A stretch of 64,000 bases of DNA from a candidate division CPR3 bacterium GWF2_35_18 (GTDB taxonomy: Bacteria; Patescibacteriota; CPR3; GWF2-35-18). Where the stretch lies: NCBI GenBank assembly GCA_001771135.1, contig MESW01000003.1, forward strand, positions 235,786 through 299,785, in the 5' to 3' direction. The notes beneath the pieces were generated by a model. The model had not been told where the DNA came from and searched no databases. It saw only the letters and a program-made list of their open reading frames with translations. Position 1 is the first letter of the stretch. Every line of letters starts with the position of its first letter. The position numbers were made by a program, and so were the translations under genes. Shown here piece after piece: positions 29,939 to 61,047 of this stretch.

Positions 29939-30085
29939 ATTCGGTGAGAAAACAGAGGTCAGAACAGAAGTTTCTAACTTCTTCTTCTCACCGAAAAATA
30001 CGGAGAGATACAAAACCCATCCTTTGTTAGTTGACCCTTTAAAAGATCAGGAGAGAGTCTCGATGAGTACCAAACAACTGAATAC
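29939..30085 (+). repeat. Conserved promoter/leader cassette, copy 2, driving the CHAP-domain protein gene
   Basis: The TCGGTGAGAA...TTCTCACCGA hairpin has a different inner loop that keeps its own inner stem. The leader is near-identical through CAGGAGAGAGTCTCGATG. Confidence 0.6.
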
Positions 30086-32402
30086 TGTGTCCACAGGAAG
30101 GCGATACTTTTATCTCGCCCTGGTAGTAACTCTACTTACCAGCGTGATTGGAGCCACTACTACTCAGCCGGTCAAAGCAAATGAAGGAGAACCACCGTCA
30201 AATTACCAAGTCTTTCTGCCTCTGATTCAAAAAGAAACCACAGAAAGTAAATGGCAGCTTTTTCAAAACTCGGAGTATCAATATACCTTTGAATTTCCCA
30301 GTGACTGGATCTACAACACCACAACCTCAGAGTATGAAGATGATCCGATTACCTCAAATCAAGTCACGGACATGCACACCCCAAATGGCGAGTTTGTCCA
30401 AGTTATGACATGGAATAACGATCAGGAAAACCTATCTCTGCTCGAATGGTATGAAAAGTATGATTCTTTTCATACCTCTCTGGATAATCCACCAGCAAAT
30501 CTCAACGCACAAATTGCAGGCTTGGATAGTATATACTTTAATCGTCTTACACTCCAAGCCCCGGCGGATATTACCGCGATCTTTAATAAAGACGGTGCTA
30601 TCTTCAGAATCTGGTATGTGGCTAATGAAGATGGAATTGACTATGAAAACTTTCTGCACCTTCTGCAAACCTTCGAATTTGATGGCCAAACAACCTCCGA
30701 TCAAATTCCAGATGTAACGCCAGACATTTTGGTCAAAGAAGTTTCGCCAAACGCTATCGAAGCCAATACCTGTAATAACAGAACCGATCCCAACGGTAAT
30801 CCATATGCATGTTTATGTAGCGGAGCCTATGGTAACTGCACCTGGTGGGCAAACTATATGCGACCTGACCTCCAAAGTATTAATTTTGGTGATGCTAAAG
30901 ATTGGAATGATGTAGTTTTAAATCATTCAAAACTAAAATACCTCCTTCCAGTCAATGGTACTCCAGAACTTGGCGCCATTGCCGTTTTTGAAGCTTATTA
31001 CCCCTGGGGAGGAATTGGAAACTTAGGACACGTTGCTTATGTCACTGGACACAACTCCCAAGACAACACGATAAGTATCTCTCAGATGTCTTGCGGCACC
31101 AACGGTATCCAGGTATATAACAATATCCCTATTGTTTCCGGACAAATCAGCTTCATTCACGGTTCCCCCACAATCTTTGAACACTCAAATTTTCAAGGAG
31201 ATTGGAGTCGTTTTACAGTTGATCTCCTTAATTACTGGGGTGAAAGATACATGTACTCTGAAGATGGCAACTATGCTTACCTCAATGACAGCGCTTCTTC
31301 AGTATGGATACCTCCAGATTACAGTGTCAGTCTTTTCAAAAATAACAACTGGCAATGCCCAGCAAATACCGGGTACCTTGATAACGGAGATCTATATGGT
31401 AGTGATGGTTACCCAGTTCTGGATACCCGATGGAGTAATTTCACATCACTAATGTTTTCTGATAATACCTCCATGAATGATGCTGTCTCTGGACATCAGA
31501 TTGGACACTTTGTCTGCCTTTCGCCTGGTTGCGGCTCCCTTCAGTCTTTCAATTCGGAATACAATAACGAACATACAAGTCCAGACACAATCTATGGAAT
31601 GTGCAGTGGAGCAACACCACCTCACCTCTATCAAGCGTCAGATCTGGTTGTGCTAAATAACCCTGCTCCCGCAGGTATAGATAATACCTTTACCTTCAGT
31701 ATCTACAATGCTGGTGATCTGACATTCAACATGTCTGAAATCTTTGTCTCTGGACACCTTTATGACGGCGGAGCATGGAAAGCCTGGGCGACTGTCCAAA
31801 ACATTGGACCTGGACAAATAAAGACCTTTATCGCTTCTGCCCCAATGTGGGGAGACAAAATCGGATCCTGGTACATCGATGGGATTGTTTACAAATCTAC
31901 ATCCGGTAATTTCTATAATTTACCTGGAAATGGATTCCTGCAAACTCAAAGCTTCACTGTTTCTAATACCGGAGTTTGGCTGTTTCAAGGGCTTCGATAT
32001 GAAGGAATTGGAGAACGATTTTCAAGTAACGATCCCAATCTTTCTAACAATCGTATCGACAACGATACGACAACATCAATTAAAATCTACACCGGGTGGT
32101 ATACCGTTGTCTGTAAAAATCAAAGTTATGGAGGGAGATGCGAATTTTTTGCTTCCTCAGATAATGATCTGAGAAATAACATCGTTGGGAGTAACACGAT
32201 TTCTTCAATCGTGGTATTAAAAAACTGGATGTTTATCAAAGGATCAACTGCGACAATTTACATCATTGAAAACGGTCAAAAAAAAGGTATTCCTTCCTGG
32301 AAAGAATATCTCTGTCTCGGAGGTCAACCCGGAGGTTATATCACTCTACTTGATACAATAGTGTCTCTTATTCCAACTGGACAGGTAAAACACTGTCCGT
32401 GA
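30063..32402 (+). CDS. Secreted/anchored protein with a duplicated N-terminal domain, a CHAP (cysteine/histidine-dependent amidohydrolase/peptidase) domain and a beta-rich C-terminal region
   Basis: Start revised to the ATG at 30063, which has an AGGAGAGAG RBS. The ORF-track start is an upstream TTG. Signal anchor YFYLALVVTLLTSVIGA. CHAP Cys in GNCTWWANY and His in LGHVAYVTGHN. Confidence 0.7.
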   Translation: MSTKQLNTVSTGRRYFYLALVVTLLTSVIGATTTQPVKANEGEPPSNYQVFLPLIQKETTESKWQLFQNSEYQYTFEFPSDWIYNTTTSEYEDDPITSNQVTDMHTPNGEFVQVMTWNNDQENLSLLEWYEKYDSFHTSLDNPPANLNAQIAGLDSIYFNRLTLQAPADITAIFNKDGAIFRIWYVANEDGIDYENFLHLLQTFEFDGQTTSDQIPDVTPDILVKEVSPNAIEANTCNNRTDPNGNPYACLCSGAYGNCTWWANYMRPDLQSINFGDAKDWNDVVLNHSKLKYLLPVNGTPELGAIAVFEAYYPWGGIGNLGHVAYVTGHNSQDNTISISQMSCGTNGIQVYNNIPIVSGQISFIHGSPTIFEHSNFQGDWSRFTVDLLNYWGERYMYSEDGNYAYLNDSASSVWIPPDYSVSLFKNNNWQCPANTGYLDNGDLYGSDGYPVLDTRWSNFTSLMFSDNTSMNDAVSGHQIGHFVCLSPGCGSLQSFNSEYNNEHTSPDTIYGMCSGATPPHLYQASDLVVLNNPAPAGIDNTFTFSIYNAGDLTFNMSEIFVSGHLYDGGAWKAWATVQNIGPGQIKTFIASAPMWGDKIGSWYIDGIVYKSTSGNFYNLPGNGFLQTQSFTVSNTGVWLFQGLRYEGIGERFSSNDPNLSNNRIDNDTTTSIKIYTGWYTVVCKNQSYGGRCEFFASSDNDLRNNIVGSNTISSIVVLKNWMFIKGSTATIYIIENGQKKGIPSWKEYLCLGGQPGGYITLLDTIVSLIPTGQVKHCP

Positions 32403-40243: not shown

Positions 40244-40414
40244 AAAAACCTCACAAATTTAAGCTCTTTCCTAAAATTCCTTGACAAATCTACAAACATA
40301 CTATAGGATAAAAAGGTTTTAAAGTTATTTTAATGGTATTCATTGACAATTATCTCTGCTCAATAATATCATTAAAAGGAAGTTATTAAAAACTTTTTAT
40401 TAAAAGGAGATATT

Positions 40415-42868
40415 ATGGGTACTCCCATTTCAGCAGAAACATCAGCGGCATCAGCACAAAGATTGCAAAAAGAAGCAATACAAGGAATGCAAGGATCAGA
40501 AGCTATTTACGGTGGCAAGGGCGGAAGAATAACTGTTACGAGCGAGCAGTCAGGAAAAATAATGGGTGTCTTACAGGCAATGAGAAACGAGCTGGTCGCA
40601 AAGAGACCTGAAGATCTAACAATTGCCGAACAACAAATTTTAGCACTTATAAATAAAATCGGAGAAAATGGTCAAGTTGATGGAAAAGAAGCTTGTCAAG
40701 CGTTGTTACTCCTTCAAGCTCGTAGAAATGCAATAGAAAATGGGCCTCGAGGACGGACAAGACAAGAAAAACAAACTACTAAAAAAAGATTAAACGCCGT
40801 TACCTCTGCTCAAAGGGAAATTGCGGTAAATATCATTCCTGCTGAAGTAGGAGTAAATAGATTTGATAGATGGGTAGCAAGAAGATACACTGAAGGGAAA
40901 ATGGACGCTAAGTTTCTTGCTGGAAATATCGATGCCGATAGAATGGTAGATAGACATCCAATTATCCAAAAATATGAAGATTTAATTACTGATAAGATTG
41001 CAAGTGGAATGAATCCTCGAGAAGCTTCAGACTCAGCCATGTCCGAAGCAATTCAATATTATGGAGATAATGAAGTAGATAAACTAATGCAACAGATTGA
41101 AGCTGAAAATCGTGTAGAAATGACCGAAAATCAGAGGAGAGAAGCACATGCAAGTAGAGAACAGATACAAGAACAATTAGAGCAAGGTCGAGAAGATTAT
41201 GAAGAACGTAAAGGGAGAGTGTCTGTCTTAAAAAAGAATCGAACTGAACTTGTAACACAAAAACAAAAACTTGAAGATGACCTCGACGATCTTGACTCTC
41301 AAATTGCCTTACTTCCGAATACTGATATCCCAGCTTTAGAACAAGCTCTTGAACAAGCAAGAGATAATGTTTCTGATAATGAACGAGATATACAAACAAC
41401 ACAGATTGAAATAGATATCTTACGGAAAAAAATAGAATCTGCAAAATCCGCCGCTGAAAAGCCTGCAGATACATCAGCTATCGAAACTCAAATTCAAGAC
41501 CTTGTGCACCAAAAAGGTGAAGCGGAAAAAAATGCCTCTACAGCTAACGCTTCTGAATCTCAAGAAAAAACCACGATTACAAATGCGAGACGCGACGCTA
41601 AAAAATATTCTGAGGAAGCCGCTGACAAAAAGAGCAGGCTGGCAGCAAAATCTACTGAGACCGCTCAAACAGTCCGAACTCATGAAGCTATGAAAAGAAG
41701 TAAAATGGCCGAAATGGCAACTATAACTGATCCGGAATTACCAACTAAACAATCAGAACTTCAGGGAAAGAGACAACAAATTTTGGAAGTTGGAAATAAT
41801 ATGCAGCAGCTAGCTGATACTCATTCTCAGGAAGTTAACGAATTATTAGAACAAGTGAATAATGAAAAGGATCCGGATAAAAAGCAAGAGCTTTTAACAC
41901 AAATACAAGAGAAACAAACGGCTTTCAAACAGCAAACAGAACAACTTAGTGAACAAGGGGAGACATTAAAAAATGAAATTGATGAGCTTGAAAATGATAT
42001 TGAAAGTCGAGAACAAGCTGTTAAATCAAGAAAAGACCTTATTAAGACAGACATTGATGCAGCAGATCAAGCAATTGATCAAGCTAATCAAGGACTTGAA
42101 GATTATAAAACAAGCATTGAGGATCTAGAACAAAAAGCGCAAGCTGAATTACAAAAAGCTGATGAGGCACAAAGAAGAATTGATAGTAACAAAATCACTA
42201 GTGCGGAACAAAACGCTGTCGCCAAACAACTTGGCGAACAAATTGCATTATTGAACCAAAAACTTAAAGAGCTGCAAAAACAAAGAGGTTCGCTAACTAA
42301 AGCAGAAGTGGACGGTTTTATTGATCAAGAAGAAACTCTTCGTAAAAAAGTCGAAACATTAAAAATACAAAAAGCAAGAAATGAACAGATCATTGGACAA
42401 AAACAAGAAGCTCTTAGACAAGGCCAAGAAGCCAAAACGAAAAAAGATAAAATGATAAAAGAGCGTGATGACAAAAAACGTGATTATGATAAAACTGACA
42501 AACAAATTACTAGAATAGATACGGAGATTGCAAATCATAAAACTGAAACCGATAAGTATGAAGATATTCAAAAACAGCTTGCGGGTGTGGAAAAACGGGT
42601 TCAATCCGCCGAAAGAGCTTCTACAGAAGCCAAAAAACTCCTTGAGGCAAAAACAACTAAAAAAGCTGATATTGAAAGACATTTCGGGTTTAAACCAGGT
42701 GATATTTCAGATCAAGAATACATCGACGCGGTTAACGCAGTTTTCCCAGATCAGGCGGCAACAATTGGTAATGATTTAGGAAGAGCTCAGAGACAGATGG
42801 AATCCTCAAACGAATTATCCCTCTGGAAAGTATTAATGAGAATTTTTGCCGGAGCTACCGTCGTTTAA
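40415..42868 (+). CDS. Large coiled-coil protein (817 aa, E/K/Q-rich)
   Basis: Compositionally biased heptad-like sequence throughout. No catalytic motif was recognised. Confidence 0.55.
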   Translation: MGTPISAETSAASAQRLQKEAIQGMQGSEAIYGGKGGRITVTSEQSGKIMGVLQAMRNELVAKRPEDLTIAEQQILALINKIGENGQVDGKEACQALLLLQARRNAIENGPRGRTRQEKQTTKKRLNAVTSAQREIAVNIIPAEVGVNRFDRWVARRYTEGKMDAKFLAGNIDADRMVDRHPIIQKYEDLITDKIASGMNPREASDSAMSEAIQYYGDNEVDKLMQQIEAENRVEMTENQRREAHASREQIQEQLEQGREDYEERKGRVSVLKKNRTELVTQKQKLEDDLDDLDSQIALLPNTDIPALEQALEQARDNVSDNERDIQTTQIEIDILRKKIESAKSAAEKPADTSAIETQIQDLVHQKGEAEKNASTANASESQEKTTITNARRDAKKYSEEAADKKSRLAAKSTETAQTVRTHEAMKRSKMAEMATITDPELPTKQSELQGKRQQILEVGNNMQQLADTHSQEVNELLEQVNNEKDPDKKQELLTQIQEKQTAFKQQTEQLSEQGETLKNEIDELENDIESREQAVKSRKDLIKTDIDAADQAIDQANQGLEDYKTSIEDLEQKAQAELQKADEAQRRIDSNKITSAEQNAVAKQLGEQIALLNQKLKELQKQRGSLTKAEVDGFIDQEETLRKKVETLKIQKARNEQIIGQKQEALRQGQEAKTKKDKMIKERDDKKRDYDKTDKQITRIDTEIANHKTETDKYEDIQKQLAGVEKRVQSAERASTEAKKLLEAKTTKKADIERHFGFKPGDISDQEYIDAVNAVFPDQAATIGNDLGRAQRQMESSNELSLWKVLMRIFAGATVV

Positions 42869-42900
42869 ATTAATCACTGCATATTATAAAGGAGTTTATT

Positions 42901-43326
42901 ATGACCACTGCCAAATTATCACCTGAAGACCAGCACTTACTTAACCTAGTCAAACTGGCTCCCCTATCAGAAGATCGGCAACAAAAACTGGAATTACTCA
43001 TTCCAACAATGACTGATGCACAAAAGTATAAATTATTAAATATTGTTTCGACTCAACTTGTTATGCAAGTCGATCATGAGGCCAGCAAAGCTGTGAATAA
43101 AACTTTAGAAGAAGTGGCTACAAATCCCAATAAAGCTTATGACCCAAAACTTTTTACGGACGCAATAAATAAGGTCTGGAATGACTTTGTAGCTCAAAAG
43201 ACAACCGTTAATGATAGCTCGCAAATAAATGATGTTAGAGCTTCGTTACAAGCTTTACAAGATAAACTAAAAAAAATATCTAGCTACGCAGATGAAGCCC
43301 AAAAAGAGCTCACAAAGCATCTTTAA
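42901..43326 (+). CDS. Hypothetical protein (141 aa)
   Basis: ORF with an AAAGGAG RBS, co-directional with the coiled-coil gene. Confidence 0.45.
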   Translation: MTTAKLSPEDQHLLNLVKLAPLSEDRQQKLELLIPTMTDAQKYKLLNIVSTQLVMQVDHEASKAVNKTLEEVATNPNKAYDPKLFTDAINKVWNDFVAQKTTVNDSSQINDVRASLQALQDKLKKISSYADEAQKELTKHL

Positions 43327-43380
43327 ACTTCACTTCGTAGCGTCAACTAAATACTAGTTGAATATACGAAAATAAAAAAA

Positions 43381-43406
43381 CTCCCTTATTTTGAGGGAGT
43401 TTTTTG
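43381..43406 (+). terminator. Rho-independent terminator (CTCCCTta-tttt-gAGGGAG then TTTTTT). Flanking A-run, so possibly bidirectional.
   Basis: Read from the sequence, directly after gene 42901-43326. Confidence 0.65.
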
Positions 43407-43453
43407 TGGGTAAAAATGTTATCATTTAATTTGTGAATTAAAGGAGTCAAAAC

Positions 43454-43780
43454 ATGAAAGCAAAAACACTCAAAGAATATCAACAGATCCTAGATGAAAT
43501 TGACGGAGATGAAAAAGTAACCAAAGAGTATACTTCAATTCTCATCTTAGGTATTCTTGAAGAGCTCGGAGAAATGTCTCGAGCTTATTTAGCAGAACAA
43601 GGTCGTAAACCTCATAACATTAGAGCACAACAGGATGAAACATATAAAGAAGAGCTCGGAGATATTATTATCACCATCATGAGACTAGCCCATATCAAAA
43701 ATATAGACCTTGACGAACGCATTCACTATACGATTACCAAAATAAAAAGACGGAAGGAATCAAGAAAGAATGCAAAGTAA
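43454..43780 (+). CDS. MazG-like nucleotide pyrophosphohydrolase
   Basis: EELGEMSRAY...EELGDIIITIMRLA shows the MazG EExxE...E/D metal-binding helix pattern. 108 aa. Confidence 0.65.
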   Translation: MKAKTLKEYQQILDEIDGDEKVTKEYTSILILGILEELGEMSRAYLAEQGRKPHNIRAQQDETYKEELGDIIITIMRLAHIKNIDLDERIHYTITKIKRRKESRKNAK

Positions 43781-44681
43781 AAGAAAGCAACAATCTCTAG
43801 GGGTAACAGCGATCTTAATTTCCACCATTTTTTATGGACTTATGGGTGTTTATTCAAAAATTATCGGAGTTAACTTTGGTATATTTACTCAAAGTTATAT
43901 TCGTAATCTAATTGTATTTTTAATCATTTTCGTTTTATGTTTGGTTCTGCGTAAAAAGTGGGTAAAAATTCAGAAGCAAGATATCCCTTGGATTATTCTC
44001 TGGTCTATAAGCGGAACGATTGCATCAGTTTGTTTCTTTGTTGCTGTAAATTATTTATCAATTGGAACCACCGTTATTATTTTTTTTGCTGGGAGTAACA
44101 TCTCTGGATATTTAGCTGGAAAGGTTCTCTATCAAGAACAACTGACAAAAAGTAAGATTATCGCTTCAATTTTATCGATTCTCGGAGTTCTATTAGTTTA
44201 TTATTCTACAATCGGTCTAGATAATCTCGTTTTTTCAATTATGGCTTTATTCTCTGGACTTGGAACTGGGTTATGGAATACGGTGAGTAAAAAATTTTCC
44301 CACCATTATTCAGGTTTGCAAATTACGGGAATGGATGCTTTTGCCTCTTTCTTAATGACGCTGTTTGCTTCAATGATTGTCTTCGAACCGTTGCCGACAA
44401 TCTCTTTTACCATCCCGATGCTATTTGTATTCATCTACTCAATTACTCAAACGATCACCGTGTTCTTCACCGTTTACGGATTTAAAAGATTAGAAGCTCA
44501 AATTGGGACATTAGTGATGCCCATGGAAGTATTTTTTGCAGCTTTGTTCGGATTTATATTCTACAGAGAAACGTTGACCATTTTAACAATTTTGGGTGGA
44601 TTATTAATAATTAGCGGAATTGTGATTCCGAATTTACGATTTGCAAAAAAAATATCGATTGTAAATCAAGTCAAAAACTAA
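43770..44681 (+). CDS. EamA/DMT-family transporter (10 TM)
   Basis: Two EamA-like five-TM halves. Confidence 0.75.
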   Translation: MQSKRKQQSLGVTAILISTIFYGLMGVYSKIIGVNFGIFTQSYIRNLIVFLIIFVLCLVLRKKWVKIQKQDIPWIILWSISGTIASVCFFVAVNYLSIGTTVIIFFAGSNISGYLAGKVLYQEQLTKSKIIASILSILGVLLVYYSTIGLDNLVFSIMALFSGLGTGLWNTVSKKFSHHYSGLQITGMDAFASFLMTLFASMIVFEPLPTISFTIPMLFVFIYSITQTITVFFTVYGFKRLEAQIGTLVMPMEVFFAALFGFIFYRETLTILTILGGLLIISGIVIPNLRFAKKISIVNQVKN

Positions 44682-53822: not shown

Positions 53823-56135
53823 CTATTTCAATACTCCAATAATATCAACCTTACCTCCACAGAAACGAGTAATAAACTCAACGCTTAACTGTAAAGCTTC
53901 CCAGACTTTTTGCGGAGCAACTTCATATACCCCATCAACGTTAATCCAAATATCCCTAGTATCATCTTTTACCAAAGTTCTCTGCGCATCACGATAGTTA
54001 AAATCTAAATTATAAGGCCCTTTTTTATCAAAATAACAGATCTCCCCATTTTTTAGAACAGTTTCTTTTTCGTCTCCATGTAGTAAAATTTTCTCCCCAC
54101 CGGAAGCTGCTTTTAAAAGTGTTGGAAATTGAATATTCTGAAGATCAAAAGCTCCCACGGAAACATGTGTTTTCATCACGACTAGGTTATACGCATCTAC
54201 AAGAGTATTTACACTATATAGCTCTTTGCCTTGCGCCAGTCGTCGTAACAAAGCCTCAGGAGAAGGTCGTCGACTATGCCAGTCAACTCCCATTGCGCGA
54301 TAAAGTTTACGATAACTTAGCAAATTTGGTGATTCTTTTAAACTTTCAACCGTAATCTTACTTAAAGATGCCAGAAATTCTTTTTTGAACTCTGTAAGTT
54401 CTGGTAAAGTTTTGACTATTTTGACGTCTCTAATAATTGCAACTCCCACAGAAATTGAGGGATACTTTTCTTGTAACGATGGATCAATCTGAATTAAATC
54501 TGTATTTCGAAAAAGAGCAAGATCAGAAATAGTTTTTGCTTTTTCTTTATTAACTTTAACGTTTTTAAATTTCTCTGCCACTAAATCTAAATCTTGACTC
54601 AAGATTAAAGCACCTGCCTTAGGACCATATTCTTTACCCAATAATGATTGATAAATAGCAGAAAAAGTTTCTTTAGGTTTAAGGTTTTGACTTTTTCCTA
54701 ACTGATACAAATGATTTTGTATTTCTGTGTCTGATTTAGGATTAACCTTTAGTTCTTTAACATACCCGCTTGCTAAGCTCAAAAAGGCAGTTTGTTCATT
54801 TGATAATCTTGATATAACTGATATTGGGGTATCTTTTTTTACTTCTAATCTAAAATCTTCCGGAGCGTAATTTTTGAGCCACATCTCTGCATACTGTTTT
54901 CGTTCTTTCAGAATATCCAGTTCGACTTTGGTAAGTTTGGCTCTTTTTTCCTTGGCAAAAAAATCAGCTAAAAACTCTACTTTCGGATCTTGAATCGCTT
55001 TCGCGATATCTAAAAATCTCGGAAGAAATTTTGGAGTTTGATAATCTTTTTTATCGTCAATCTGCGCTACTTCATAAATCCGGCCAAAATCATCTGTATT
55101 ACCCTGCTCCCAATAAACATGAGCACAGCGATCATACTCATCAAAAAGATCCGGAATTGTCATACCTTCGGGATCAAAATTGGCTTGTCTGTTATAACGA
55201 TTGCGGGCAAATAGAAATCGTCCAATTGTCGGCGGAAATATTTTTACAAATTCCGAAGCTGAAGTTCCCACACCTTTTGAAGAGGACATCTTCTTCCCTT
55301 TAATCAGAAACCATTCATATGGAATATCGTAAGGATTGGGATAATTATAAACGTCTTTGAGGATTTGCACTGCCATATCGCGAGAACCACCGGCTGAAGA
55401 GTGATCCTTACCTGCGCCTTCGACTGTAATCCCGACTGTCTTCCAATGAGCCGGCCAATCTACCTTCCACATTAGTTTACCGGTACCATTAAATGGTGAA
55501 ACCTTTCCCTCATAACCACAACCTATTGCCCATTTCACCAAATTAGGTACACAGCGGAATGAAACTTCTTTTCCATCCCAATCAAAGACTTCAGTTGTCC
55601 CCACTTTTCCACATTTTGGACAAACAGGCTGAAAAGGATACCAATGTTTTGGTTTATCATAATTACCGACTTCTTTATAAATAAGACGAATCAAATCAAC
55701 TTTATCCAAAGCGGTTTTAATGGCATCATTCATCTTCCCTGATTGATACAGTTCATGTGACCAAAGTATTTCCGGCTTCGCTCCCAACTTTTGCATCGCT
55801 TCAATAAATTCATACGCATACTGATGCCCAAGGCTTTTAGATTTTTTATCCGGCGAGGGAATTGTGAAAAGTGGTTTCCCCATATGTTTCTCATATTCTT
55901 TTTGATCAAGGTAAGAAGGTAAGCCATCCATAGGATCAAAATCATTAAACACGTAGGTATACTTCGCCTTAACTCCCAGGTAAAGTAATGATTTATAGAT
56001 AAAGTCATGAAGAAGCACTCCAACCAAAGAACCCACATGAATCCGACCGGAAGGCGTCTTCATATCATCAACCCACTGGAGTGGTTCACGTCGAGTATTT
56101 TTTATTTCTGTAGCAAGTTTATCAGCCCAAAACAA
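53823..56135 (-). CDS. lysK: Class I lysyl-tRNA synthetase fused to a C-terminal B3/4 (PheRS-beta editing-type) domain. TTG start.
   Basis: MFWADKL..PSGRIHVGSLVG (HIGH region), KMSSSKGVG (KMSKS). The C-terminal approximately 250 aa, ...PNLLSYRKLYRAMGVD..RPSPEALLRRLAQGKELYSVNTLVDAYNLVVMKTHVSVGAFDL...GGEKILLHGDEK..., match B3/4-domain hallmarks. Single uninterrupted 770-aa frame. Confidence 0.8.
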   Translation of the reverse strand: MFWADKLATEIKNTRREPLQWVDDMKTPSGRIHVGSLVGVLLHDFIYKSLLYLGVKAKYTYVFNDFDPMDGLPSYLDQKEYEKHMGKPLFTIPSPDKKSKSLGHQYAYEFIEAMQKLGAKPEILWSHELYQSGKMNDAIKTALDKVDLIRLIYKEVGNYDKPKHWYPFQPVCPKCGKVGTTEVFDWDGKEVSFRCVPNLVKWAIGCGYEGKVSPFNGTGKLMWKVDWPAHWKTVGITVEGAGKDHSSAGGSRDMAVQILKDVYNYPNPYDIPYEWFLIKGKKMSSSKGVGTSASEFVKIFPPTIGRFLFARNRYNRQANFDPEGMTIPDLFDEYDRCAHVYWEQGNTDDFGRIYEVAQIDDKKDYQTPKFLPRFLDIAKAIQDPKVEFLADFFAKEKRAKLTKVELDILKERKQYAEMWLKNYAPEDFRLEVKKDTPISVISRLSNEQTAFLSLASGYVKELKVNPKSDTEIQNHLYQLGKSQNLKPKETFSAIYQSLLGKEYGPKAGALILSQDLDLVAEKFKNVKVNKEKAKTISDLALFRNTDLIQIDPSLQEKYPSISVGVAIIRDVKIVKTLPELTEFKKEFLASLSKITVESLKESPNLLSYRKLYRAMGVDWHSRRPSPEALLRRLAQGKELYSVNTLVDAYNLVVMKTHVSVGAFDLQNIQFPTLLKAASGGEKILLHGDEKETVLKNGEICYFDKKGPYNLDFNYRDAQRTLVKDDTRDIWINVDGVYEVAPQKVWEALQLSVEFITRFCGGKVDIIGVLK

Positions 56136-56589
56136 AGTAAGTTGTCAGTAATTAGTAATCGGTGTCTTATAAAAAAACCCGAAAACCAATACTTAACCTC
56201 CACTAAAATCTTTATTGATAACTGTTTCCTATCATACCAAAAGCTTGATCCAAAAACCAGAGCAAAATATTTACAATTTATTTTCTAGTTTTTGTAATTG
56301 TCGGACAAAAAACAAAAAGTTCTTGACGGCAATATACCCTGTAGATTATTATACCTATAGTTGATCTATTTTAGATCAACTTTTTCATTGCACATCAAAA
56401 GCTGCTTATCCCCAAAAAGCAATCTGGAAGAAGATTTCTATTGAGACTAATTGAATAAAATTTGACTGTCATTTTGACTGAAACTGAGAGATTAATTATC
56501 TGTTAATTTTTCTGTTCCGTCAAAATGACCTTAAAAAAGGCATTTTCAATTTTTGCTTACTAGTGAGTTTTTATACTCGAAAGGAGAAT

Positions 56590-57700
56590 TCTGTTGAAAG
56601 GAGGTGAGGCTGGCTATGAACGCCAATAATACCGTGTGATACTACCTGGCGCCCGCCCCTAGAGGTCACATACCCCGATGGGGCAAATACTCCTAAAGAG
56701 GAGTTCATCTAACCTTTGGTATCGACTGCGCGATCGCGGTACGATGTAATGACCAAAGGATCTTAGTCAGCTAAGTGAGTGGACATGCGTCCTGCTTTTT
56801 CATACTGGCTGACGCCATTTTTCTTTTTGCTAAGGTCCGCGGAGACCTGGAGGCCGACAATGAGTGCACAGATCTTGTGGCTCGATATCTGTATCGGCAA
56901 GTTGTTCATGGCCCGCGTCTTCCGGGATGGTTGCACAACGGTTGAATCCGTTTCGTCTGCCCGGAGCATCTGTGGCCAAATCACCCCCGCGGACACACGA
57001 TGGTATCGCCCAACCTCACGCCCGGAGGGAATTAACCCGACTATCGCCGGGTTTGGCTAGCAGGACTATCTGTGTATCTTTGCGCAAACGCGCTCAATAG
57101 ACGCCCAGTGGGCTGAAATTGTTGCGTCCATGCGCTGCGGATTATCAATCTATTAGTAAGGAGGTGCTCTATCTTCGATACTAACAAGATTCACTCGCTC
57201 GTGTTGGATCTTTCGAAAAGAAAGTTGTGATTCAATCAACTGTGTTTAATCGGCAAAAACTGGAGATCGATCACTCGAAATGTTGAATACCAATAATGTA
57301 CACTCACACCTGTCGCCTTTGACCGCCGATGATCTGCACCTGACCGTCAACCGCCGCGCCGACTACAACCTGAGCCAGTAGCCCAACGATCAATTGCTAC
57401 TGCGAGGTTTTTCGCGAGGTTTGACTAACTCACTTACATTGACCTTGGAGAGGGATATGAGGGACTCATGTCCCTCTCCATGCATTCTCTTGGCCGACGC
57501 GCCAAGATTCAGGGGGAAACAAGGGAGAGACAATTTTTAGACGAGATGGGAATACATTTTTCTGGGGGATTTAAAGTTCTACCCGCCTACCGGTCCGCCG
57601 GAGCCACTTTTACCCACAATCCACAGATTACCAAACCCATCTCGTCTCTCCCAACTCTTTCAAAAACTAATTCCAAATCAACAATATAATATTTCTCGTG
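56590..57700. other. GC-rich approximately 1.1-kb island inside a 1.77-kb gene-free gap. It contains hairpins, a strong SD plus a 7-codon mini-ORF, and short GC3-biased ORF fragments. Candidate foreign-origin or decayed DNA, or a structured RNA.
   Basis: Base composition is visibly about 50 percent GC or more, against an approximately 33 percent background. No ORF exceeds 93 aa. Third-codon-position G/C enrichment is seen in several short frames. Confidence 0.5.
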
Positions 57701-57907
57701 TTATTTTGAGCTCTTATTTATTTATATTTTCACCATGTGGAAGAGTCTAGAAATTCACAATGAACGGAACGTCAAAAAAATGCTCTTGTTTGAGTTCGTC
57801 AAAGGCGACGAGTTAGCTTTTTAGTGGAGTGAGTTGATGAATTTCTTGACGATATAACCTAGTGATGCTTTTTGACTCCAGCTTTTGGCATCGCAAAAGA
57901 TGGAAAA

Positions 57908-59017
57908 TTATCTTAATCTTTTAAAAATCTCGGTATAAACTTTTTCCACATATTCTAATTCTTTAACTTCAACATATTCATCGACTTGATGTGCCTGTAC
58001 AATACTTCCGGCTCCAAAAACAATTGTATTTATACCTGCTTCTTGTAAATCTGCCGCTTCCGTGTAGTATCGGGCTCCAGTTAGTGTAATCTGCGAATCA
58101 ACTTTTTTAATTATTTCAATCATCGAATGGTTATCAACACCCGCTTGAAATGAAGGAAATTTATAAATCTGTTCCACCCTAACTTTATCTTTCAAGACCT
58201 CATCCGTATTCACTAAATTTTGGACTCCCCACAAAATCTGATCCGCATTATATTCTGGAATATAACGAAAATCAATTTTGACTTCACAATAATCTGGAAC
58301 AGTATTTAATACCGAAGTATCTTTTCCACCCTGAATATAACCGATACTAGAAACTCCATTACCCAAAAACTCGTTTTGCTCTTTTTGTAAAATATTAACA
58401 TAGTACTCTTGAAATATATTTAAAAAGTGATTCGCCAGATAGATACTGTTTTCTCCTTCTTCCGGACGCGAAGAATGTACAGATTTTCCTATAAAAGAAA
58501 CTTTCAATCCCGTAATTCCCATGTGCGCAACCAGAATCTCGCGATCAGTTGGTTCGGCAACAAGAGCTTCCTCAATATTTTTATGAAAATCACTTTCAAT
58601 AAAAACCTTAATTCCTTTTCCGGTTTGTTCTTCATCAGCGCTAAAAAGAAAAAGGCAGTTTTCCGGTTTGTTTTTTAAAATCGCTCCAGCTATTGCGGCC
58701 AGAGAACCTTTATTATCACAAGCTCCTCGACCATAAAGTTTTCCGTTCTGAATCTTTCCAGAAAATGGGTCATATAACCATTTGTTTTTATCACCAACAG
58801 ATACGGTATCAAGATGCACATTAAAAAGATATCTTGGTCTTACGCCAAAATAAACAAGCAAATTACTCCGATTATTCTCAAAGCTTTGGATAATACATTT
58901 GCCTTTCGTATTCTTCTCAAAAAAATCTTGCAGATATTCTACAACTTTTATTTCATTTCCGGGTGGGTTCTGACTATCGATCGCAATTAAATTTTGGAGG
59001 ATCTTAACTGTTTTCAT
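57908..59017 (-). CDS. M20-family metallopeptidase/deacylase (ArgE/DapE/YodQ-like)
   Basis: HLDTVSVGD, GRGACDNKGSLAA and SADEEQTG metal-binding motifs. Confidence 0.8.
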   Translation of the reverse strand: MKTVKILQNLIAIDSQNPPGNEIKVVEYLQDFFEKNTKGKCIIQSFENNRSNLLVYFGVRPRYLFNVHLDTVSVGDKNKWLYDPFSGKIQNGKLYGRGACDNKGSLAAIAGAILKNKPENCLFLFSADEEQTGKGIKVFIESDFHKNIEEALVAEPTDREILVAHMGITGLKVSFIGKSVHSSRPEEGENSIYLANHFLNIFQEYYVNILQKEQNEFLGNGVSSIGYIQGGKDTSVLNTVPDYCEVKIDFRYIPEYNADQILWGVQNLVNTDEVLKDKVRVEQIYKFPSFQAGVDNHSMIEIIKKVDSQITLTGARYYTEAADLQEAGINTIVFGAGSIVQAHQVDEYVEVKELEYVEKVYTEIFKRLR

Positions 59018-60306
59018 TTTTTCCTTCTTTTTAATCTCGCTAAATTCTGCGGAACTAGATTGACTTCTCCGCTTTCGGTAAGTAGTTTTGCAACACCAAT
59101 AGTATTTTTATAATCGACTGGATCGCTGTATTTTTTTATATCTAGAGGTAAAGTATGCGTATAATTAGTCGGTTCTGTATAGTTAAATATTAAACCTTCA
59201 TAATTACGGAGCGCGATTTTGTGATTACTCTGGGATAGAACATAATTTGGCATTACTGGAACTTTTCCACCACCACCAATGCCATCGATGACAAAAGTCG
59301 GTACCGCAAAACCGCTGGTGTGACCGCGCAAATTTTCAATAATCTCTATTCCTTCTGATACTTTGGTTCGAAAATGCTCAAGCCCTTGGCTCAAATCACA
59401 TTGATAGATATAGTATGGACGCACGCGATTGACAACTAGCAATTTCACTAGTTTTTTATAAATCAGAGGGTGGTTATTTACCCCACGAAGTAAAACACTC
59501 TGATTGCCAAGAGGAATCCCCGCATCAGCGAGTTTTTGACAAGCTTCTGCCGAAAGATCAGTCATCTCACGCGGATGATTAAAATGAGTATTAATCCAAA
59601 GCGGATGATATTTCTTCAGTATATTACAAAGATTGTCAGTAATTCTCATAGGCATCGTAACTGGCACTCGAGTACCAATACGAATAATTTCTAAGTGATC
59701 AATCACTCGTAATTCTTTCAAAATTACTTCCAGATGATCGTCTGATAAAGTCAAAGGGTCTCCTCCAGAAATAAGGACATCACGAATTGTTTCTCTCTTG
59801 CGAATATACTCTATGGCTTTTTTGATCTTTGACATCGGGGTAGGAATATCTGTTTCTCCCGCATGACGCCTACGGGTACAATGTCGACAATACATCGCAC
59901 ATTGGTAGGTCACGTAAATAATAAGACGATCAGGGTAACGATGAGTTAAGATTCCTTCCAGACCCGGAACAGGACAATCTGCTTCTTCATGCAAAGGATC
60001 TTTACAATCAGTTTTTTTGATATCGGTTTCCGCTAAAGTCGGAATTGCCTGCATTCGAATTGGATCGTTGACTTCATTAGAATCAATTTGCGAAAGATAA
60101 TATGGAGTTATCGCCATCCGTAAAATCTTCAAAGAATCGCTGATTTCCTTTGTAGCTTTGTCACTTAAACCTAAAATCTCCTGTAGTTCTTTAGGATCAG
60201 TAACTCGGTTATTTAGCTGCCAATTATAATCATTCCAATCTCTATCACAAACTTTAAGCCAATATTTATGTTTTTTGGCTTTGGTGAAGAAAAATTTTCT
60301 AGGCAT
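59014..60306 (-). CDS. kamA: Lysine 2,3-aminomutase (radical SAM, KamA family)
   Basis: CAMYCRHCTRRR CxxxCxxC cluster. The N-terminal KYWLKVCDRDWNDYNWQLNNRV is collinear with B. subtilis KamA. 430 aa. Confidence 0.85.
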   Translation of the reverse strand: MPRKFFFTKAKKHKYWLKVCDRDWNDYNWQLNNRVTDPKELQEILGLSDKATKEISDSLKILRMAITPYYLSQIDSNEVNDPIRMQAIPTLAETDIKKTDCKDPLHEEADCPVPGLEGILTHRYPDRLIIYVTYQCAMYCRHCTRRRHAGETDIPTPMSKIKKAIEYIRKRETIRDVLISGGDPLTLSDDHLEVILKELRVIDHLEIIRIGTRVPVTMPMRITDNLCNILKKYHPLWINTHFNHPREMTDLSAEACQKLADAGIPLGNQSVLLRGVNNHPLIYKKLVKLLVVNRVRPYYIYQCDLSQGLEHFRTKVSEGIEIIENLRGHTSGFAVPTFVIDGIGGGGKVPVMPNYVLSQSNHKIALRNYEGLIFNYTEPTNYTHTLPLDIKKYSDPVDYKNTIGVAKLLTESGEVNLVPQNLARLKRRKK

Positions 60307-60416
60307 ATAATCTCCTTCAAATAATCCGCTTTCTGGCGAACTAAATCCTAAACCCTAAGATCTAAACATACCTGCTTAGATCCTAGATCTTATAATTTAG
60401 TATTGATTGGAGCTTA

Positions 60417-60478
60417 GGGGATTGGTGTTTTTCTGTCAAGAAAAAATGATGCGATGCATCCACCAATCCCCTTTTTTG
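60417..60478 (+). terminator. Strong hairpin (11-bp perfect stem GGGGATTGGTG/CACCAATCCCC, 33-nt loop) followed by TTTTTT. There is no plus-strand gene upstream.
   Basis: Read from the sequence. The loop contains TTGACA on the minus strand. Confidence 0.4.
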
Positions 60479-60495
60479 TATCTCTCTGCTCCCTT

Positions 60496-61047
60496 TTAAG
60501 TTTTTTTAGACCAGTTGGCCTTGAGTAACCGACATGCGCCATCAGCTTTAGTGCAATCAACTCCTAACTCTCCACTGCAACAACAAGTTGTTGCTCGAAT
60601 AGCAAGAGGCAATGATGTAAAATCCCACATGGCCATTCCGCCATGAATTAAAGCGGTTATTGCTTTCGAAGTTTTAGCTGTCGCAATAATGCGATGTTTG
60701 CCATTTAATGTCAAAGCTATTCGAACTAATTCCGTTCCGATACCAAGTCCTTGATATTGTGAAAAAACTCCCAGAGTTCCAAGCTCTAGAACACCTTCCA
60801 CTTTAAGATCCCAAAGAGTCACAAAACCAACAAGCTCTAACCCTTCAGGTCTTTCTATGACAGCGGCCACAGTCGCCTCTTTTTTGAGCTGCGGCATAAT
60901 TTCTGCCGGAGCTTTAACTAGCATAATACCTTGATATTCGCGAGTCATTCTGGAAACCTCTTCGGCAATACGAAGGTGATGCTCTGGTGGAATTTGCATC
61001 CCATGAAGAAATTTAACACCATCCACTTTTTCTCTCCTTCTGCTCAT
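60496..61047 (-). CDS. GNAT acetyltransferase (beta-lysine acetyltransferase YodP/AblB-like by context)
   Basis: QYQGLGIGTELVRIAL acetyl-CoA-binding motif. Located next to kamA. Cys-rich C-terminal tail. Confidence 0.65.
   Translation of the reverse strand: MSRRREKVDGVKFLHGMQIPPEHHLRIAEEVSRMTREYQGIMLVKAPAEIMPQLKKEATVAAVIERPEGLELVGFVTLWDLKVEGVLELGTLGVFSQYQGLGIGTELVRIALTLNGKHRIIATAKTSKAITALIHGGMAMWDFTSLPLAIRATTCCCSGELGVDCTKADGACRLLKANWSKKT

What the first reader, a model, noticed from the sequence alone, without database searches (positions are those of the whole stretch)
53823..56135. Class I lysyl-tRNA synthetase fused to a B3/4 (PheRS editing-type) domain
A single 770-aa frame encodes a class I LysRS (HIGH-type region RIHVGSLVG, and KMSSSKG) followed by an approximately 250-aa C-terminal extension. 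The extension matches the stand-alone B3/4 domain family: ...RPSPEALLRRLAQGKELYSVNTLVDAYNLVVMK..VGAFDL...GGEKILLHGDE.... B3/4 is the editing domain of the PheRS beta subunit, and free B3/4 proteins are presumed trans-editing or tRNA-binding factors. I am not aware that a LysRS-B3/4 fusion has been described. The gene starts with TTG.
Basis: partly seen in the sequence, partly recalled or inferred. Interest (0 to 1): 0.55.

Follow-up and report, generated by a model that had tools for sequence, protein, structure and literature searches.

The report
Lysyl-tRNA synthetase with appended CtdA-like deacylase
This gene joins the enzyme that loads lysine onto its tRNA to a complete copy of a recently characterised "proofreading" protein (CtdA type), a conserved fusion in hundreds of Patescibacteria species that would give lysyl-tRNA synthetase an error-correcting hydrolase it was not known to have.

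Summary
Window 53823..56135 (minus strand, TTG start) is one 770-aa ORF. Residues 1-525 are a full class I LysRS: Pfam tRNA-synt_1f scores E 2e-89, and the lysS_arch equivalog scores 367 bits. Residues ~544-770 are a B3/4 module (Pfam B3_4, 77 bits against a cut-off of 29).

The fusion is not an assembly artefact. The identical protein is on 23 contigs. 71 of the 80 best species loci have the same collinear LysRS1-B3/4 gene, and at least 427 species genomes encode a relative of the module.

The module is not PheRS-beta-like. It is a complete copy of the free-standing CtdA (canavanyl-tRNAArg deacylase) fold, with TM 0.81-0.83 to CtdA against 0.55-0.61 to PheRS beta. It keeps the Asn and the small residue that are essential in CtdA, but has its own pocket signature (F/Y, N/C/T and D in place of E118, C166 and Q173). 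It is the most conserved part of the protein.

The same module subfamily is also fused to the unrelated class II LysRS. CtdA-signature modules are fused to ArgRS.

Best reading: a tethered aminoacyl-tRNA deacylase that clears mischarged tRNALys. The substrate is unknown. I found no description of this fusion in the literature I could search.

The parts
53823..56135 (-). Whole gene: 770-aa LysRS1 + CtdA-like B3/4 fusion. TTG start at 56133-56135, stop at 53823-53825.
   Evidence: The identical protein P0001 is named 'lysine--tRNA ligase [candidate division CPR3 bacterium GWF2_35_18]'.
55059..56132 (-). Class I LysRS catalytic (Rossmann) domain, residues 2-359.
   Evidence: Pfam PF01921 tRNA-synt_1f, E 1.9e-89.
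56028..56039 (-). HIGH-type signature HVGS (residues 33-36).
   Evidence: H33 and G35 are invariant in 40 homologues.
55518..55622 (-). Cysteine cluster C172, C175, C195, C206, probably the zinc knuckle of the LysRS1 insertion domain.
   Evidence: All four Cys are invariant in 40 homologues; sequence. The zinc role is inferred from general knowledge of LysRS1 and was not tested.
55278..55292 (-). KMSKS-type signature KMSSS (residues 282-286).
   Evidence: K282, M283, S286, K287 and G288 are invariant.
54561..55058 (-). LysRS1 helical anticodon-binding / C-terminal region, residues 360-525.
   Evidence: TIGR00467 lysS_arch covers residues 1-525 end to end. All-helical in the full-length model.
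54507..54560 (-). Junction, residues 526-543 (VKVNKEKAKTISDLALFR): a helix followed by a short, poorly conserved, low-confidence tether.
   Evidence: The surrounding stretch 526-560 is the lowest-conservation segment (0.47). pLDDT is 64 for residues 531-540, while the full-length pTM is only 0.66 despite mean pLDDT 91.6.
53826..54506 (-). Complete CtdA-like B3/4 module, residues 544-770. Predicted aminoacyl-tRNA deacylase.
   Evidence: Aligns end to end with free-standing 220-240-aa B3/4 proteins. AF2 model pLDDT 95.2, pTM 0.91. Foldseek TM 0.81-0.83 to CtdA 9f7e/9mkl over ~233 columns. The 608-770 core is the most conserved segment of the protein (0.74).
53862..54314 (-). Pfam B3_4 core, residues 608-758.
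   Evidence: PF03483, E 1.9e-21, 76.8 bits.
54186..54188 (-). N650, the equivalent of CtdA N105 and E. coli PheT N254 (the Asn near the scissile ester).
   Evidence: Alignments. Invariant in 40 homologues. N105A inactivates CtdA (PMC12449066).
54144..54155 (-). G661-A-F663-D664. G661 is equivalent to CtdA G116 and PheT H265. F663 is equivalent to CtdA E118.
   Evidence: The position is G or A in all 39 LysRS-fused representatives. F/Y in 39 of 39, against E in CtdA and in 6 of 6 ArgRS-fused modules. G116H and G116W inactivate CtdA.
53988..54011 (-). N709-LDFNYR-D716. N709 is equivalent to CtdA C166 (the specificity residue). D716 is equivalent to CtdA Q173 and PheT G318.
   Evidence: N/C/T at 709. 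D in 38 of 39 LysRS C-terminal fusions. The NYRDxxRT motif is shared with CtdA and not with PheRS.

Best explanation
The gene encodes the housekeeping class I lysyl-tRNA synthetase of a CPR3 (Patescibacteria) bacterium. A whole free-standing-type aminoacyl-tRNA deacylase of the CtdA / B3-B4 family has been welded to its C-terminus.

Proposed mechanism:
- The LysRS1 part charges tRNALys.
- The appended module, on a short flexible tether at the anticodon-binding end of the enzyme, captures the 3' end of tRNALys carrying a wrong amino acid and hydrolyses the ester bond. It uses the conserved Asn650 / small-residue-661 pocket.
- It spares Lys-tRNALys through a size- and shape-selective pocket (F/Y663, N/C/T709, D716).
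- The wrong amino acid is most likely a near-cognate one, possibly cationic: ornithine, arginine-like or lysine-analogue type.
- Because the tether sits far from the synthetic site and the inter-domain orientation is not fixed, it most likely works as a 'tethered trans-editor'. It would act on tRNA just released, or on tRNA bound to a partner subunit, rather than by the classical CCA-end swing.

Shown: the architecture, its conservation, the fold, retention of the CtdA-essential residues, a distinct pocket signature, and recurrent fusion of the same module subfamily to both non-homologous LysRS classes.

Inferred: hydrolytic activity, tRNALys as the target, the identity of the rejected amino acid, and the trans-like geometry.
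For: (1) Architecture and domain identity.

(2) Conservation. More than 115 of 120 homologues are fused and full length. At least 427 species genomes encode a relative of the module, and 71 of the 80 best loci have it collinear after a LysRS1 core.

(3) The B3/4 core is the most conserved segment: mean column conservation 0.74, against 0.66 for the catalytic domain. This argues for an active site rather than a passive appendage.

(4) The closest solved relatives are CtdA deacylases, by sequence (E 1.9e-5) and by fold (TM 0.81-0.83 over the full length).

(5) Residues whose mutation kills CtdA are retained. N105 corresponds to N650, which is invariant. G116 corresponds to G661, which is G/A only. 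Position 173 is occupied by an acidic residue, D716; Glu occupies this position in C. perfringens CtdA, which the paper reads as catalytically tolerated.

(6) Rosetta-stone evidence. The same module subfamily has the F/Y-118, D-173 signature and mean identity 0.37 both within and between groups. It forms one 48-leaf NJ clade that excludes CtdA. It is fused to the C-terminus of genuine class II LysRS: 14 representative clusters, lysS_bact equivalog above cut-off, and 9 of 80 species loci. Two unrelated enzymes that share only their substrates carry the same module.

(7) Modules with the CtdA signature (E118, mostly C166) are fused to ArgRS, the enzyme whose error CtdA corrects. In this family, fusion partner and pocket type go together.

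[quoted passage not shown] So there is a known error class to correct.

(9) Full-length model: pLDDT 91.6 but pTM 0.66, with a dip at residues 531-540. This fits a flexible tether.
Against: No biochemical data exist for any member of this subfamily.

Three of the CtdA pocket residues differ (E118 to F, C166 to N, Q173 to D), so neither activity nor specificity can be transferred from CtdA.

A close relative (P0005, 72% identical LysRS1, 533 aa) lacks the module altogether and has no B3/4 gene next door. The module is therefore dispensable in at least one lineage, unless that single Logan contig is misassembled.

The C-terminal position next to the anticodon-binding region is geometrically awkward for cis editing. 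That is an inference from general LysRS1/GluRS architecture; I had no coordinates to measure.

The LysRS2 N-terminal fusions (2 representatives) carry a CtdA-type rather than a Lys-type pocket, so pocket type and partner do not correlate perfectly.

The NJ tree has no support values.
Confidence: 0.6

Rival explanations
1. The module is a canavanyl-tRNAArg (CtdA-type) or otherwise non-tRNALys deacylase that merely rides on LysRS. It would be a general trans-editing factor expressed stoichiometrically with a housekeeping synthetase, acting on tRNAArg or other tRNAs.
For: CtdA is the closest characterised relative. CtdA works in trans and its tRNA recognition is unknown (PMC12449066). The flexible tether would allow action on any tRNA. 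Two LysRS2 N-terminal fusions carry the CtdA-type pocket.
Against: The specificity residues E118 and C166 are replaced in all 39 LysRS C-terminal-fused representatives. Genuine CtdA-signature modules are found on ArgRS instead. Recurrent fusion of the F/Y-D subfamily to both LysRS classes, and to no other synthetase among the top 150 representatives, points to lysine/tRNALys.
Confidence: 0.12
2. The module is catalytically silent. It serves as an extra tRNA-binding or dimerisation domain (CtdA is a dimer) that improves tRNALys binding or turns the monomeric LysRS1 into a dimer.
For: CtdA is dimeric. Tandem B3/4 duplications occur in LysRS1 P0003 and in ArgRS P0176, which would make an intramolecular pseudo-dimer. 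Appended non-catalytic tRNA-binding domains are common in synthetases (general knowledge). P0145 combines tRNA_bind with B3_4.
Against: The pocket residues, and not only surface residues, are the invariant ones: N650, G661, F663, D664, N713, D716. The module is more conserved than the synthetase core. Some fusions add further hydrolase-type domains after it (HD, DUF2000), which fits a hydrolytic or quality-control theme.
Confidence: 0.15
3. The module replaces PheRS editing. These reduced genomes would have a PheRS beta lacking B3/4, and the LysRS-borne module would hydrolyse Tyr-tRNAPhe in trans.
For: The fold is the same as the PheRS editing domain. The local motif GAFD resembles PheT HAFD.
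Against: The His265 equivalent is Gly, and the Gly318 equivalent is Asp. CtdA, and CtdA mutants engineered towards PheRS, cannot rescue PheRS editing loss. TM to PheRS beta is only 0.55-0.61, against 0.81-0.83 to CtdA. Fusion to LysRS1, LysRS2 and ArgRS but never to PheRS in the sampled set. I could not test whether pheT of these genomes retains B3/4: pheT is not in the window or the loci.
Confidence: 0.05
4. In this particular genome the module guards against beta-lysine. An ablA/ablB-like beta-lysine cluster sits directly upstream of lysS, and the deacylase would remove beta-lysyl-tRNALys.
For: Window 59014..60306 is a lysine 2,3-aminomutase (TIGR03820 AblA equivalog, 575 bits against a cut-off of 525). 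It is flanked by a GNAT acetyltransferase and an ArgE/DapE-type deacylase.
Against: The aminomutase neighbours the fusion in only 1 of 80 other species loci, and the M20 gene in 5 of 80. It therefore cannot explain a fusion conserved across hundreds of species. No evidence that LysRS1 charges beta-lysine.
Confidence: 0.04

Closest known systems
CtdA, free-standing canavanyl-tRNAArg deacylase (PDB 9f7e, 9mkl; PMC10018355, PMC12268091, PMC12449066)
   Same: Same complete fold including the CtdA-specific helical insert (TM 0.81-0.83, ~233 aligned columns). Same length, ~225 aa. Shared motifs SxEALxxR, VDxYN and N[WY]R[QDE]xxRT. Essential N105 and G116 are conserved.
   Different: Fused to a synthetase instead of free-standing. 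About 20% sequence identity. Pocket residues E118, C166 and Q173 are F/Y, N/C/T and D. It belongs to a separate clade from CtdA in my NJ tree. Its relation to the uncharacterised 'CtdA-2' clade of PMC12449066 was not tested.
B3/B4 editing domain of bacterial PheRS beta subunit (e.g. 3pco, 4p71, 1pys)
   Same: Same B3/B4 core fold. Conserved Asn (PheT N254). Local xAFD motif. It is a synthetase-borne post-transfer editing domain.
   Different: Lower structural similarity (TM 0.55-0.61). His265 is Gly and Gly318 is Asp. It has the CtdA-type insert and lacks the PheRS-specific helices. It is attached as a terminal module on a short tether rather than embedded among the B1-B8 domains.
Class I lysyl-tRNA synthetase (TIGR00467 lysS_arch; PDB 1IRX type)
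   Same: Residues 1-525 match the family model end to end, with HIGH- and KMSKS-type motifs and the Cys cluster.
   Different: Canonical LysRS1 ends at about residue 525-535, as the unfused relative P0005 does. No editing domain is listed for LysRS-I in the aaRS overview I could read.
Synthetases with terminally appended homologues of free-standing editing factors: AlaRS / AlaX, ThrRS N-terminal editing domain, ProRS INS / YbaK-ProXp
   Same: Same evolutionary logic. One deacylase fold exists both free-standing and fused to the synthetase whose errors it corrects (PMC11580382).
   Different: Different fold and different synthetase. Here the same module is shared between the two non-homologous LysRS classes.
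LysRS2-B3/4(-HD / -DUF2000) and B3/4-ArgRS fusions found here (P0130, P0135, P0145, P0210; P0176, P0190, P0191, P0215, P0267)
   Same: Same module family. The LysRS2 C-terminal fusions share the Lys-type pocket and are 38-50% identical to this module.
   Different: Different synthetase partner. The ArgRS fusions are N-terminal and have the CtdA-type pocket. As far as I could find, these are also undescribed.

Membership tests
Class I lysyl-tRNA synthetase (LysRS1) | End-to-end match to the family model above the curated cut-off. | tested here: met
   TIGR00467: 366.6 bits against 147.55, residues 1-525 to model positions 1-513 of 515. PF01921: E 1.9e-89.
Class I lysyl-tRNA synthetase (LysRS1) | Class I signature motifs HIGH and KMSKS. 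| tested here: met
   HVGS 33-36 and KMSSS 282-286, with H33, G35, K282, M283, S286 and K287 invariant in 40 homologues.
Class I lysyl-tRNA synthetase (LysRS1) | Lysylation of tRNALys. | not testable with these tools
   Requires an aminoacylation assay. No LysRS2 in the 64-kb window. The rest of the genome was not available.
Pfam B3_4 (PF03483) | Score above the gathering threshold. | tested here: met
   76.8 bits against 29.3, residues 608-758.
CtdA family (canavanyl-tRNAArg deacylase) | Full B3/B4 fold with the CtdA-specific helical insert, ~225 aa. | tested here: met
   Foldseek TM 0.81-0.83, 233-235 aligned columns, to 9f7e and 9mkl. Model pLDDT 95.2.
CtdA family (canavanyl-tRNAArg deacylase) | Essential pocket residues N105 and G116. 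| tested here: met
   N650 is invariant. Residue 661 is G or A in all 39 fused representatives. Mutant data in PMC12449066.
CtdA family (canavanyl-tRNAArg deacylase) | Specificity residues: C166, strictly conserved in CtdA-1, together with E118 and Q/E173. | tested here: not met
   In this protein N709, F663 and D716. Across LysRS C-terminal fusions, position 166 is N/C/T, position 118 is F/Y in 39 of 39, and position 173 is D in 38 of 39.
CtdA family (canavanyl-tRNAArg deacylase) | Free-standing protein. | tested here: not met
   Fused in frame to LysRS1.
CtdA family (canavanyl-tRNAArg deacylase) | Hydrolysis of Can-tRNAArg. | not testable with these tools
   Requires a deacylation assay.
PheRS beta editing domain | Editing-site residues of E. 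coli PheT: H265, G318, R244 (and E334). | tested here: not met
   The H265 equivalent is G661 and the G318 equivalent is D716. The residue 10 positions before the conserved Asn, where PheT has R244, is Y640. This comes from the alignments and the correspondences given in PMC12449066. E334 could not be aligned.
PheRS beta editing domain | Embedded in PheRS beta between the B1/B2 and B5 domains. | tested here: not met
   Only LysRS1 domains precede it and nothing follows.

The most novel reading that the evidence does not exclude
This is the first dedicated post-transfer editing domain of a lysyl-tRNA synthetase. It would define a lysine-system branch of the CtdA deacylase family that has been captured repeatedly by both the class I and the class II LysRS, with a sister branch on ArgRS. 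That would imply that mischarging of tRNALys by a still unidentified natural amino acid (ornithine-, arginine- or lysine-analogue-like) is a strong, widespread selective pressure in Patescibacteria and some archaea.
Probability: 0.5. Interest if true: 0.78.

Novelty: new variant of a known kind. Interest (0 to 1): 0.66.

Why it matters
LysRS is the textbook synthetase that exists in two unrelated classes. It is documented to mischarge tRNALys and to have no post-transfer editing (PMC4173786).

A conserved LysRS with a CtdA-type deacylase attached, found on both LysRS classes, would add LysRS (and ArgRS) to the list of synthetases with dedicated hydrolytic proofreading. It would also give the newly characterised CtdA family a second predicted substrate system, and provide a clean natural 'Rosetta stone' for assigning function to the many uncharacterised free-standing B3/4 proteins.

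It points to an unidentified lysine-like antimetabolite or metabolic by-product that matters for ultra-small, host-dependent bacteria which scavenge their amino acids.

The hypothesis is directly testable with standard deacylation assays on a 227-residue module that is predicted with very high confidence.

Tried and rejected
(1) Frameshift or missed stop: rejected.

(2) Beta-lysine link through the neighbouring ablA-like cluster: rejected as a general explanation, because the aminomutase is next to the fusion in only 1 of 80 other loci.

(3) A split-gene 'Rosetta' partner downstream of the unfused relative P0005. The 377-aa ORF there has no Pfam hit and no visible similarity to B3/4.

(4) A LysRS gene next to the closest free-standing homologue P0129: none found.

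(5) Finding pheT, to test whether PheRS beta keeps its own B3/4. It is not in the window. No PheT-like B3/4 hit in 1.45 Mb of fetched loci. This is inconclusive, because those loci sample only lysS neighbourhoods.

(6) L017 appeared to hold a second LysRS (class II). The hit is only 24-26% identical, so it is probably another class IIb synthetase; dropped.

(7) Literature searches for the fusion (and in-paper searches) found nothing. The search tool cannot handle the string 'B3/4', and PMC283595 (Jester et al. 2003, on lysine analogues) is not held.

(8) Rfam on the gene-less gap upstream: no hit even at E<=1.

(9) My first pocket-residue table was off by one column. It was corrected, and only one search is used.
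Full report
OBSERVATION

The window holds a single open reading frame at 53823..56135 on the minus strand (770 aa, TTG start). Pfam finds tRNA-synt_1f over residues 2-359 (E 1.9e-89) and B3_4 over 608-758 (76.8 bits against a gathering score of 29.3). The NCBIfam equivalog for archaeal-type class I LysRS (TIGR00467) matches residues 1-525 end to end (366.6 bits against 147.55).

They are invariant among homologues. The N-terminus MFWADK coincides with that of homologues, so the TTG start is credible.

The protein is 100% identical to 'lysine--tRNA ligase [candidate division CPR3 bacterium GWF2_35_18]'. The strand is minus, and the junction lies at about 54507-54560 rather than 54700.

NOT AN ARTEFACT

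The identical protein is encoded on 23 contigs from several assemblies. Of the best 120 homologues, more than 115 are full length (750-812 aa), cover 97-100% of the query at 47-57% identity, and carry both Pfam domains. They come from Roizman-, Woese-, Gottesman-, Dojka- and Pacebacteria and other Patescibacteria.

In the best 80 loci, 71 have the module directly after, and collinear with, a LysRS1 core. Many of these MAGs are labelled 'uncultured Gammaproteobacteria' or similar. Their synteny (GreA in 53 of 80, SerRS in 44 of 80) matches the named Microgenomates loci, so I regard those labels as unreliable. That is my inference.

WHAT THE C-TERMINAL PART IS

It is more specific than that.

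A phmmer search of residues 540-770 against 1.84 billion cluster representatives shows the segment aligning over its whole length (query 6-230) with free-standing proteins of 220-240 aa. Hit counts were 2103 at E<=1e-3 and 45 at E<=1e-30.

Against PDB sequences, the best hits are the free-standing canavanyl-tRNAArg deacylase CtdA of Pseudomonas canavaninivorans (9f7e, E 1.9e-5) and of Salmonella (9mkl). Both score ahead of PheRS beta.

An AlphaFold2 model of residues 540-770 built on 26 diverse homologues is very confident (pLDDT 95.2, pTM 0.91). It superposes on CtdA with TM 0.81-0.83 over about 233 columns, against TM 0.55-0.61 for PheRS beta subunits.

So the LysRS1 core ends at about 525, a short junction follows (526-543), and residues 544-770 are a complete CtdA-type protein, including the helical insert that distinguishes CtdA from the PheRS domain (PMC12449066).

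IS THE MODULE LIKELY TO BE CATALYTIC?

In an alignment of 117 full-length fusions, the B3/4 core (608-770) is the most conserved part of the protein. Its mean column conservation is 0.74, against 0.66 for the synthetase catalytic domain, 0.55 for the anticodon-binding region and 0.47 for the junction.

The invariant residues are the pocket residues. PMC12449066 shows that N105A, G116H/W and Q173G inactivate Salmonella CtdA and that C166 tunes specificity for canavanine. The equivalents here are:
- N650, which is invariant.
- G661, which is G or A only.
- D716, which is acidic. C. perfringens CtdA has Glu at this position.
- N709, in place of C166.
- F663, in place of E118.

The catalytic scaffold is therefore kept while the specificity positions have changed. 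That is the pattern expected for an active deacylase with a different substrate, though it is not proof.

THE KEY COMPARATIVE RESULT

Among the 150 best representatives, the module occurs in four other architectures besides free-standing genes:
(i) OB-fold + class II core + B3_4, with or without an HD, DUF2000 or tRNA_bind domain. The synthetase part scores above the lysS_bact equivalog cut-off, so it is genuine class II LysRS.
(ii) B3_4 at the N-terminus of class II LysRS.
(iii) B3_4 at the N-terminus of ArgRS (argS equivalog, 481 bits).
(iv) Tandem B3_4 on LysRS1 (P0003) and on ArgRS (P0176).

Nine of the 80 species loci are LysRS2-B3/4 fusions, four of them with an HD tail.

The pocket signature sorts these groups (SeCtdA numbering):

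| Group | n | Position 118 | Position 166 | Position 173 |
|---|---|---|---|---|
| CtdA | 2 | E | C | Q |
| ArgRS-fused | 6 | E (6/6) | C (4/6) | E/Q |
| LysRS1 C-terminal fusions | 25 | F/Y | N/C/T | D |
| LysRS2 C-terminal fusions | 14 | F/Y | N/C/T | D |

Across the two LysRS C-terminal groups, position 118 is F/Y in 39 of 39 and position 173 is D in 38 of 39.

Mean identity between LysRS1-borne and LysRS2-borne modules (0.37) equals that within each group. Identity to the ArgRS-borne and CtdA modules is 0.23-0.28.

In a neighbour-joining tree, all 39 LysRS C-terminal modules fall in one 48-leaf clade with 7 free-standing proteins and 2 fragments of unclear architecture. That clade excludes every CtdA, ArgRS-borne and LysRS2-N-terminal module. 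LysRS1 and LysRS2 partners are interleaved within it, with a parsimony minimum of 9 switches. The tree has no support values, so this is indicative only.

An HD tail found on two LysRS1 fusions (L007, L008) is homologous to the HD tail of a LysRS2 fusion (32% identity over 217 aa, E 3e-30). A B3/4(-HD) cassette has therefore been combined with both LysRS classes.

Class I and class II LysRS share no ancestry, only their substrates. Recurrent attachment of one module subfamily to both is strong guilt-by-association evidence that the module's job concerns lysine/tRNALys. The CtdA-signature modules on ArgRS fit the known CtdA function on tRNAArg.

HOW IT PROBABLY WORKS

[quoted passage not shown] Pneumococcal LysRS makes Ala-tRNALys (PMC4173786). 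I therefore propose that the module hydrolyses mischarged tRNALys.

A conserved acidic residue (D716, with D664) and an aromatic residue (F/Y663) occupy positions that face the side-chain end of the docked substrate in CtdA. This suggests, by inference only, a cationic near-cognate amino acid such as ornithine, an arginine-like compound or a lysine analogue. The actual substrate is unknown.

The full-length model has high local confidence (pLDDT 91.6) but pTM of only 0.66. Apart from the KMSSS loop, the one weak block is at residues 531-540. The two halves are thus joined by a short flexible tether at the anticodon-binding end of LysRS1.

From general knowledge of LysRS1/GluRS architecture, that end is far from the acceptor stem. 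The module also sits at different termini in the LysRS2 and ArgRS fusions. I therefore favour a 'tethered trans-editor', acting on released tRNA or across a dimer, over a classical CCA-swing cis editor. CtdA is dimeric, and tandem modules occur twice independently. This geometry is inferred, not shown.

COUNTER-EVIDENCE AND LIMITS

The closest relative after the identical sequence, P0005 (72% identity, 533 aa), lacks the module. It is followed by an unrelated 377-aa ORF. The module is therefore not indispensable, unless that single contig is misassembled.

Two LysRS2 N-terminal fusions carry the CtdA-type pocket. I could not examine pheT, a second lysS, or tRNALys of this genome: there are no tRNA genes in the window, and pheT is not in the window or the loci. 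I had no atomic coordinates to inspect the pocket.

COMPARISON WITH WHAT IS KNOWN, AND NOVELTY

The protein is a member of LysRS1 and of Pfam B3_4. Its module has the CtdA fold and catalytic scaffold but fails the CtdA specificity-residue and free-standing criteria. It also fails the PheRS editing-site criteria (see the membership table). It works like the AlaRS/AlaX or ProRS/ProXp pairs, where one deacylase fold is both free-standing and synthetase-borne.

The sequences are public and annotated simply as 'lysine--tRNA ligase'. In the literature I could search, the three CtdA papers contain no mention of LysRS, lysyl, fused or fusion. The most recent of them surveys only free-standing CtdA-1 and CtdA-2. 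An aaRS database paper lists no editing domain for LysRS-I, and four keyword searches found nothing.

The library omits most subscription journals, so I cannot exclude an earlier mention. The architecture must also be visible in domain-architecture databases. I rate it a new variant of a known kind: a synthetase-appended editing domain, on a synthetase not known to have one, with convergent capture by both LysRS classes.

VERDICT

Confidence that the module is a functional aminoacyl-tRNA deacylase acting in the lysine system is about 0.6. The substrate is unresolved. Interest is 0.66.

Noticed in passing
window 57908..61047 (minus strand): 60496..61047 GNAT, 59014..60306 aminomutase, 57908..59017 M20 deacylase: An ablA/ablB-like cluster lies directly upstream of lysS. 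It holds a lysine 2,3-aminomutase (TIGR03820 AblA equivalog, 575 bits against a cut-off of 525), a GNAT acetyltransferase and an ArgE/DapE-family M20 deacylase. This suggests beta-lysine / N-acetyl-beta-lysine metabolism in a CPR3 bacterium. The aminomutase is next to the LysRS fusion in only 1 of 80 other species loci (L071, Roizmanbacteria, 73% identity).
   Followed up: partly
window 56136..57907 (GC-rich core ~56636..57636): A 1.77-kb stretch with no called gene lies between the M20 gene and lysS. GC is 45-59% per 100 nt in a ~33% GC genome, with only short ORFs on both strands. Rfam finds nothing even at E<=1. It is partly conserved in L001, a relative whose LysRS is 72% identical: 149 nt at 90% and 207 nt at 73%. 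It contains a perfect 16-bp hairpin. The fold z-score is -2.6 on the plus strand and -2.0 on the minus strand. It could be an unknown structured RNA, a gene remnant or a foreign insert.
   Followed up: partly
P0176, P0190, P0191, P0215, P0267 (proteins); locus L087 4141..6816: These are arginyl-tRNA synthetases with an N-terminal CtdA-signature B3/4 module (E118, mostly C166); P0176 has two in tandem. That would be a cis version of the CtdA/ArgRS canavanine proofreading pair. I found no description of it.
   Followed up: partly
P0130, P0135, P0145, P0210; loci L031, L038, L047, L048, L052, L056, L064, L069, L076: These are class II LysRS fused to the same Lys-type B3/4 module, often followed by an HD domain (P0130, P0145, four loci) or DUF2000 (P0135), or preceded by a tRNA_bind domain (P0145). 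P0130 is labelled Promethearchaeota. L052 also has a second, unfused LysRS2 about 7 kb upstream. The role of the HD or DUF2000 tail is unknown.
   Followed up: partly
L007 (ORF from ~8366, 978 aa) and L008 (ORF from ~5656, 986 aa): These are LysRS1-B3/4 genes with an extra ~220-230-aa C-terminal tail carrying an LLHDIDY motif. The tail is below Pfam's HD threshold (E 0.0068) but clearly homologous to the HD tail of the LysRS2 fusion P0130 (32% identity, E 3e-30).
   Followed up: yes
P0003 (1077 aa, Candidatus Roizmanbacteria RIFCSPHIGHO2_01_FULL_35_10): This is LysRS1 followed by two tandem B3/4 modules (578-804 and 844-1071). Given that CtdA is a homodimer, it may form an intramolecular pseudo-dimer.
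   Followed up: partly
L001 6001..8755: The closest non-identical relative (P0005, 72% identity) is an unfused 533-aa LysRS1. It is followed 20 nt downstream by a 377-aa ORF with no Pfam hit and no similarity to B3/4. This is either a lineage-specific loss or replacement of the module, or an assembly problem.
   Followed up: partly
window 40415..42868 (+) and 30024..32402 (+): An 817-aa ORF with no Pfam hit lies in a stretch with reversed GC and AT skew (40001-44000). A separate 792-aa CHAP-domain protein lies in a locally GC-richer block (30001-32000, GC 0.43). Neither was examined further.
   Followed up: no
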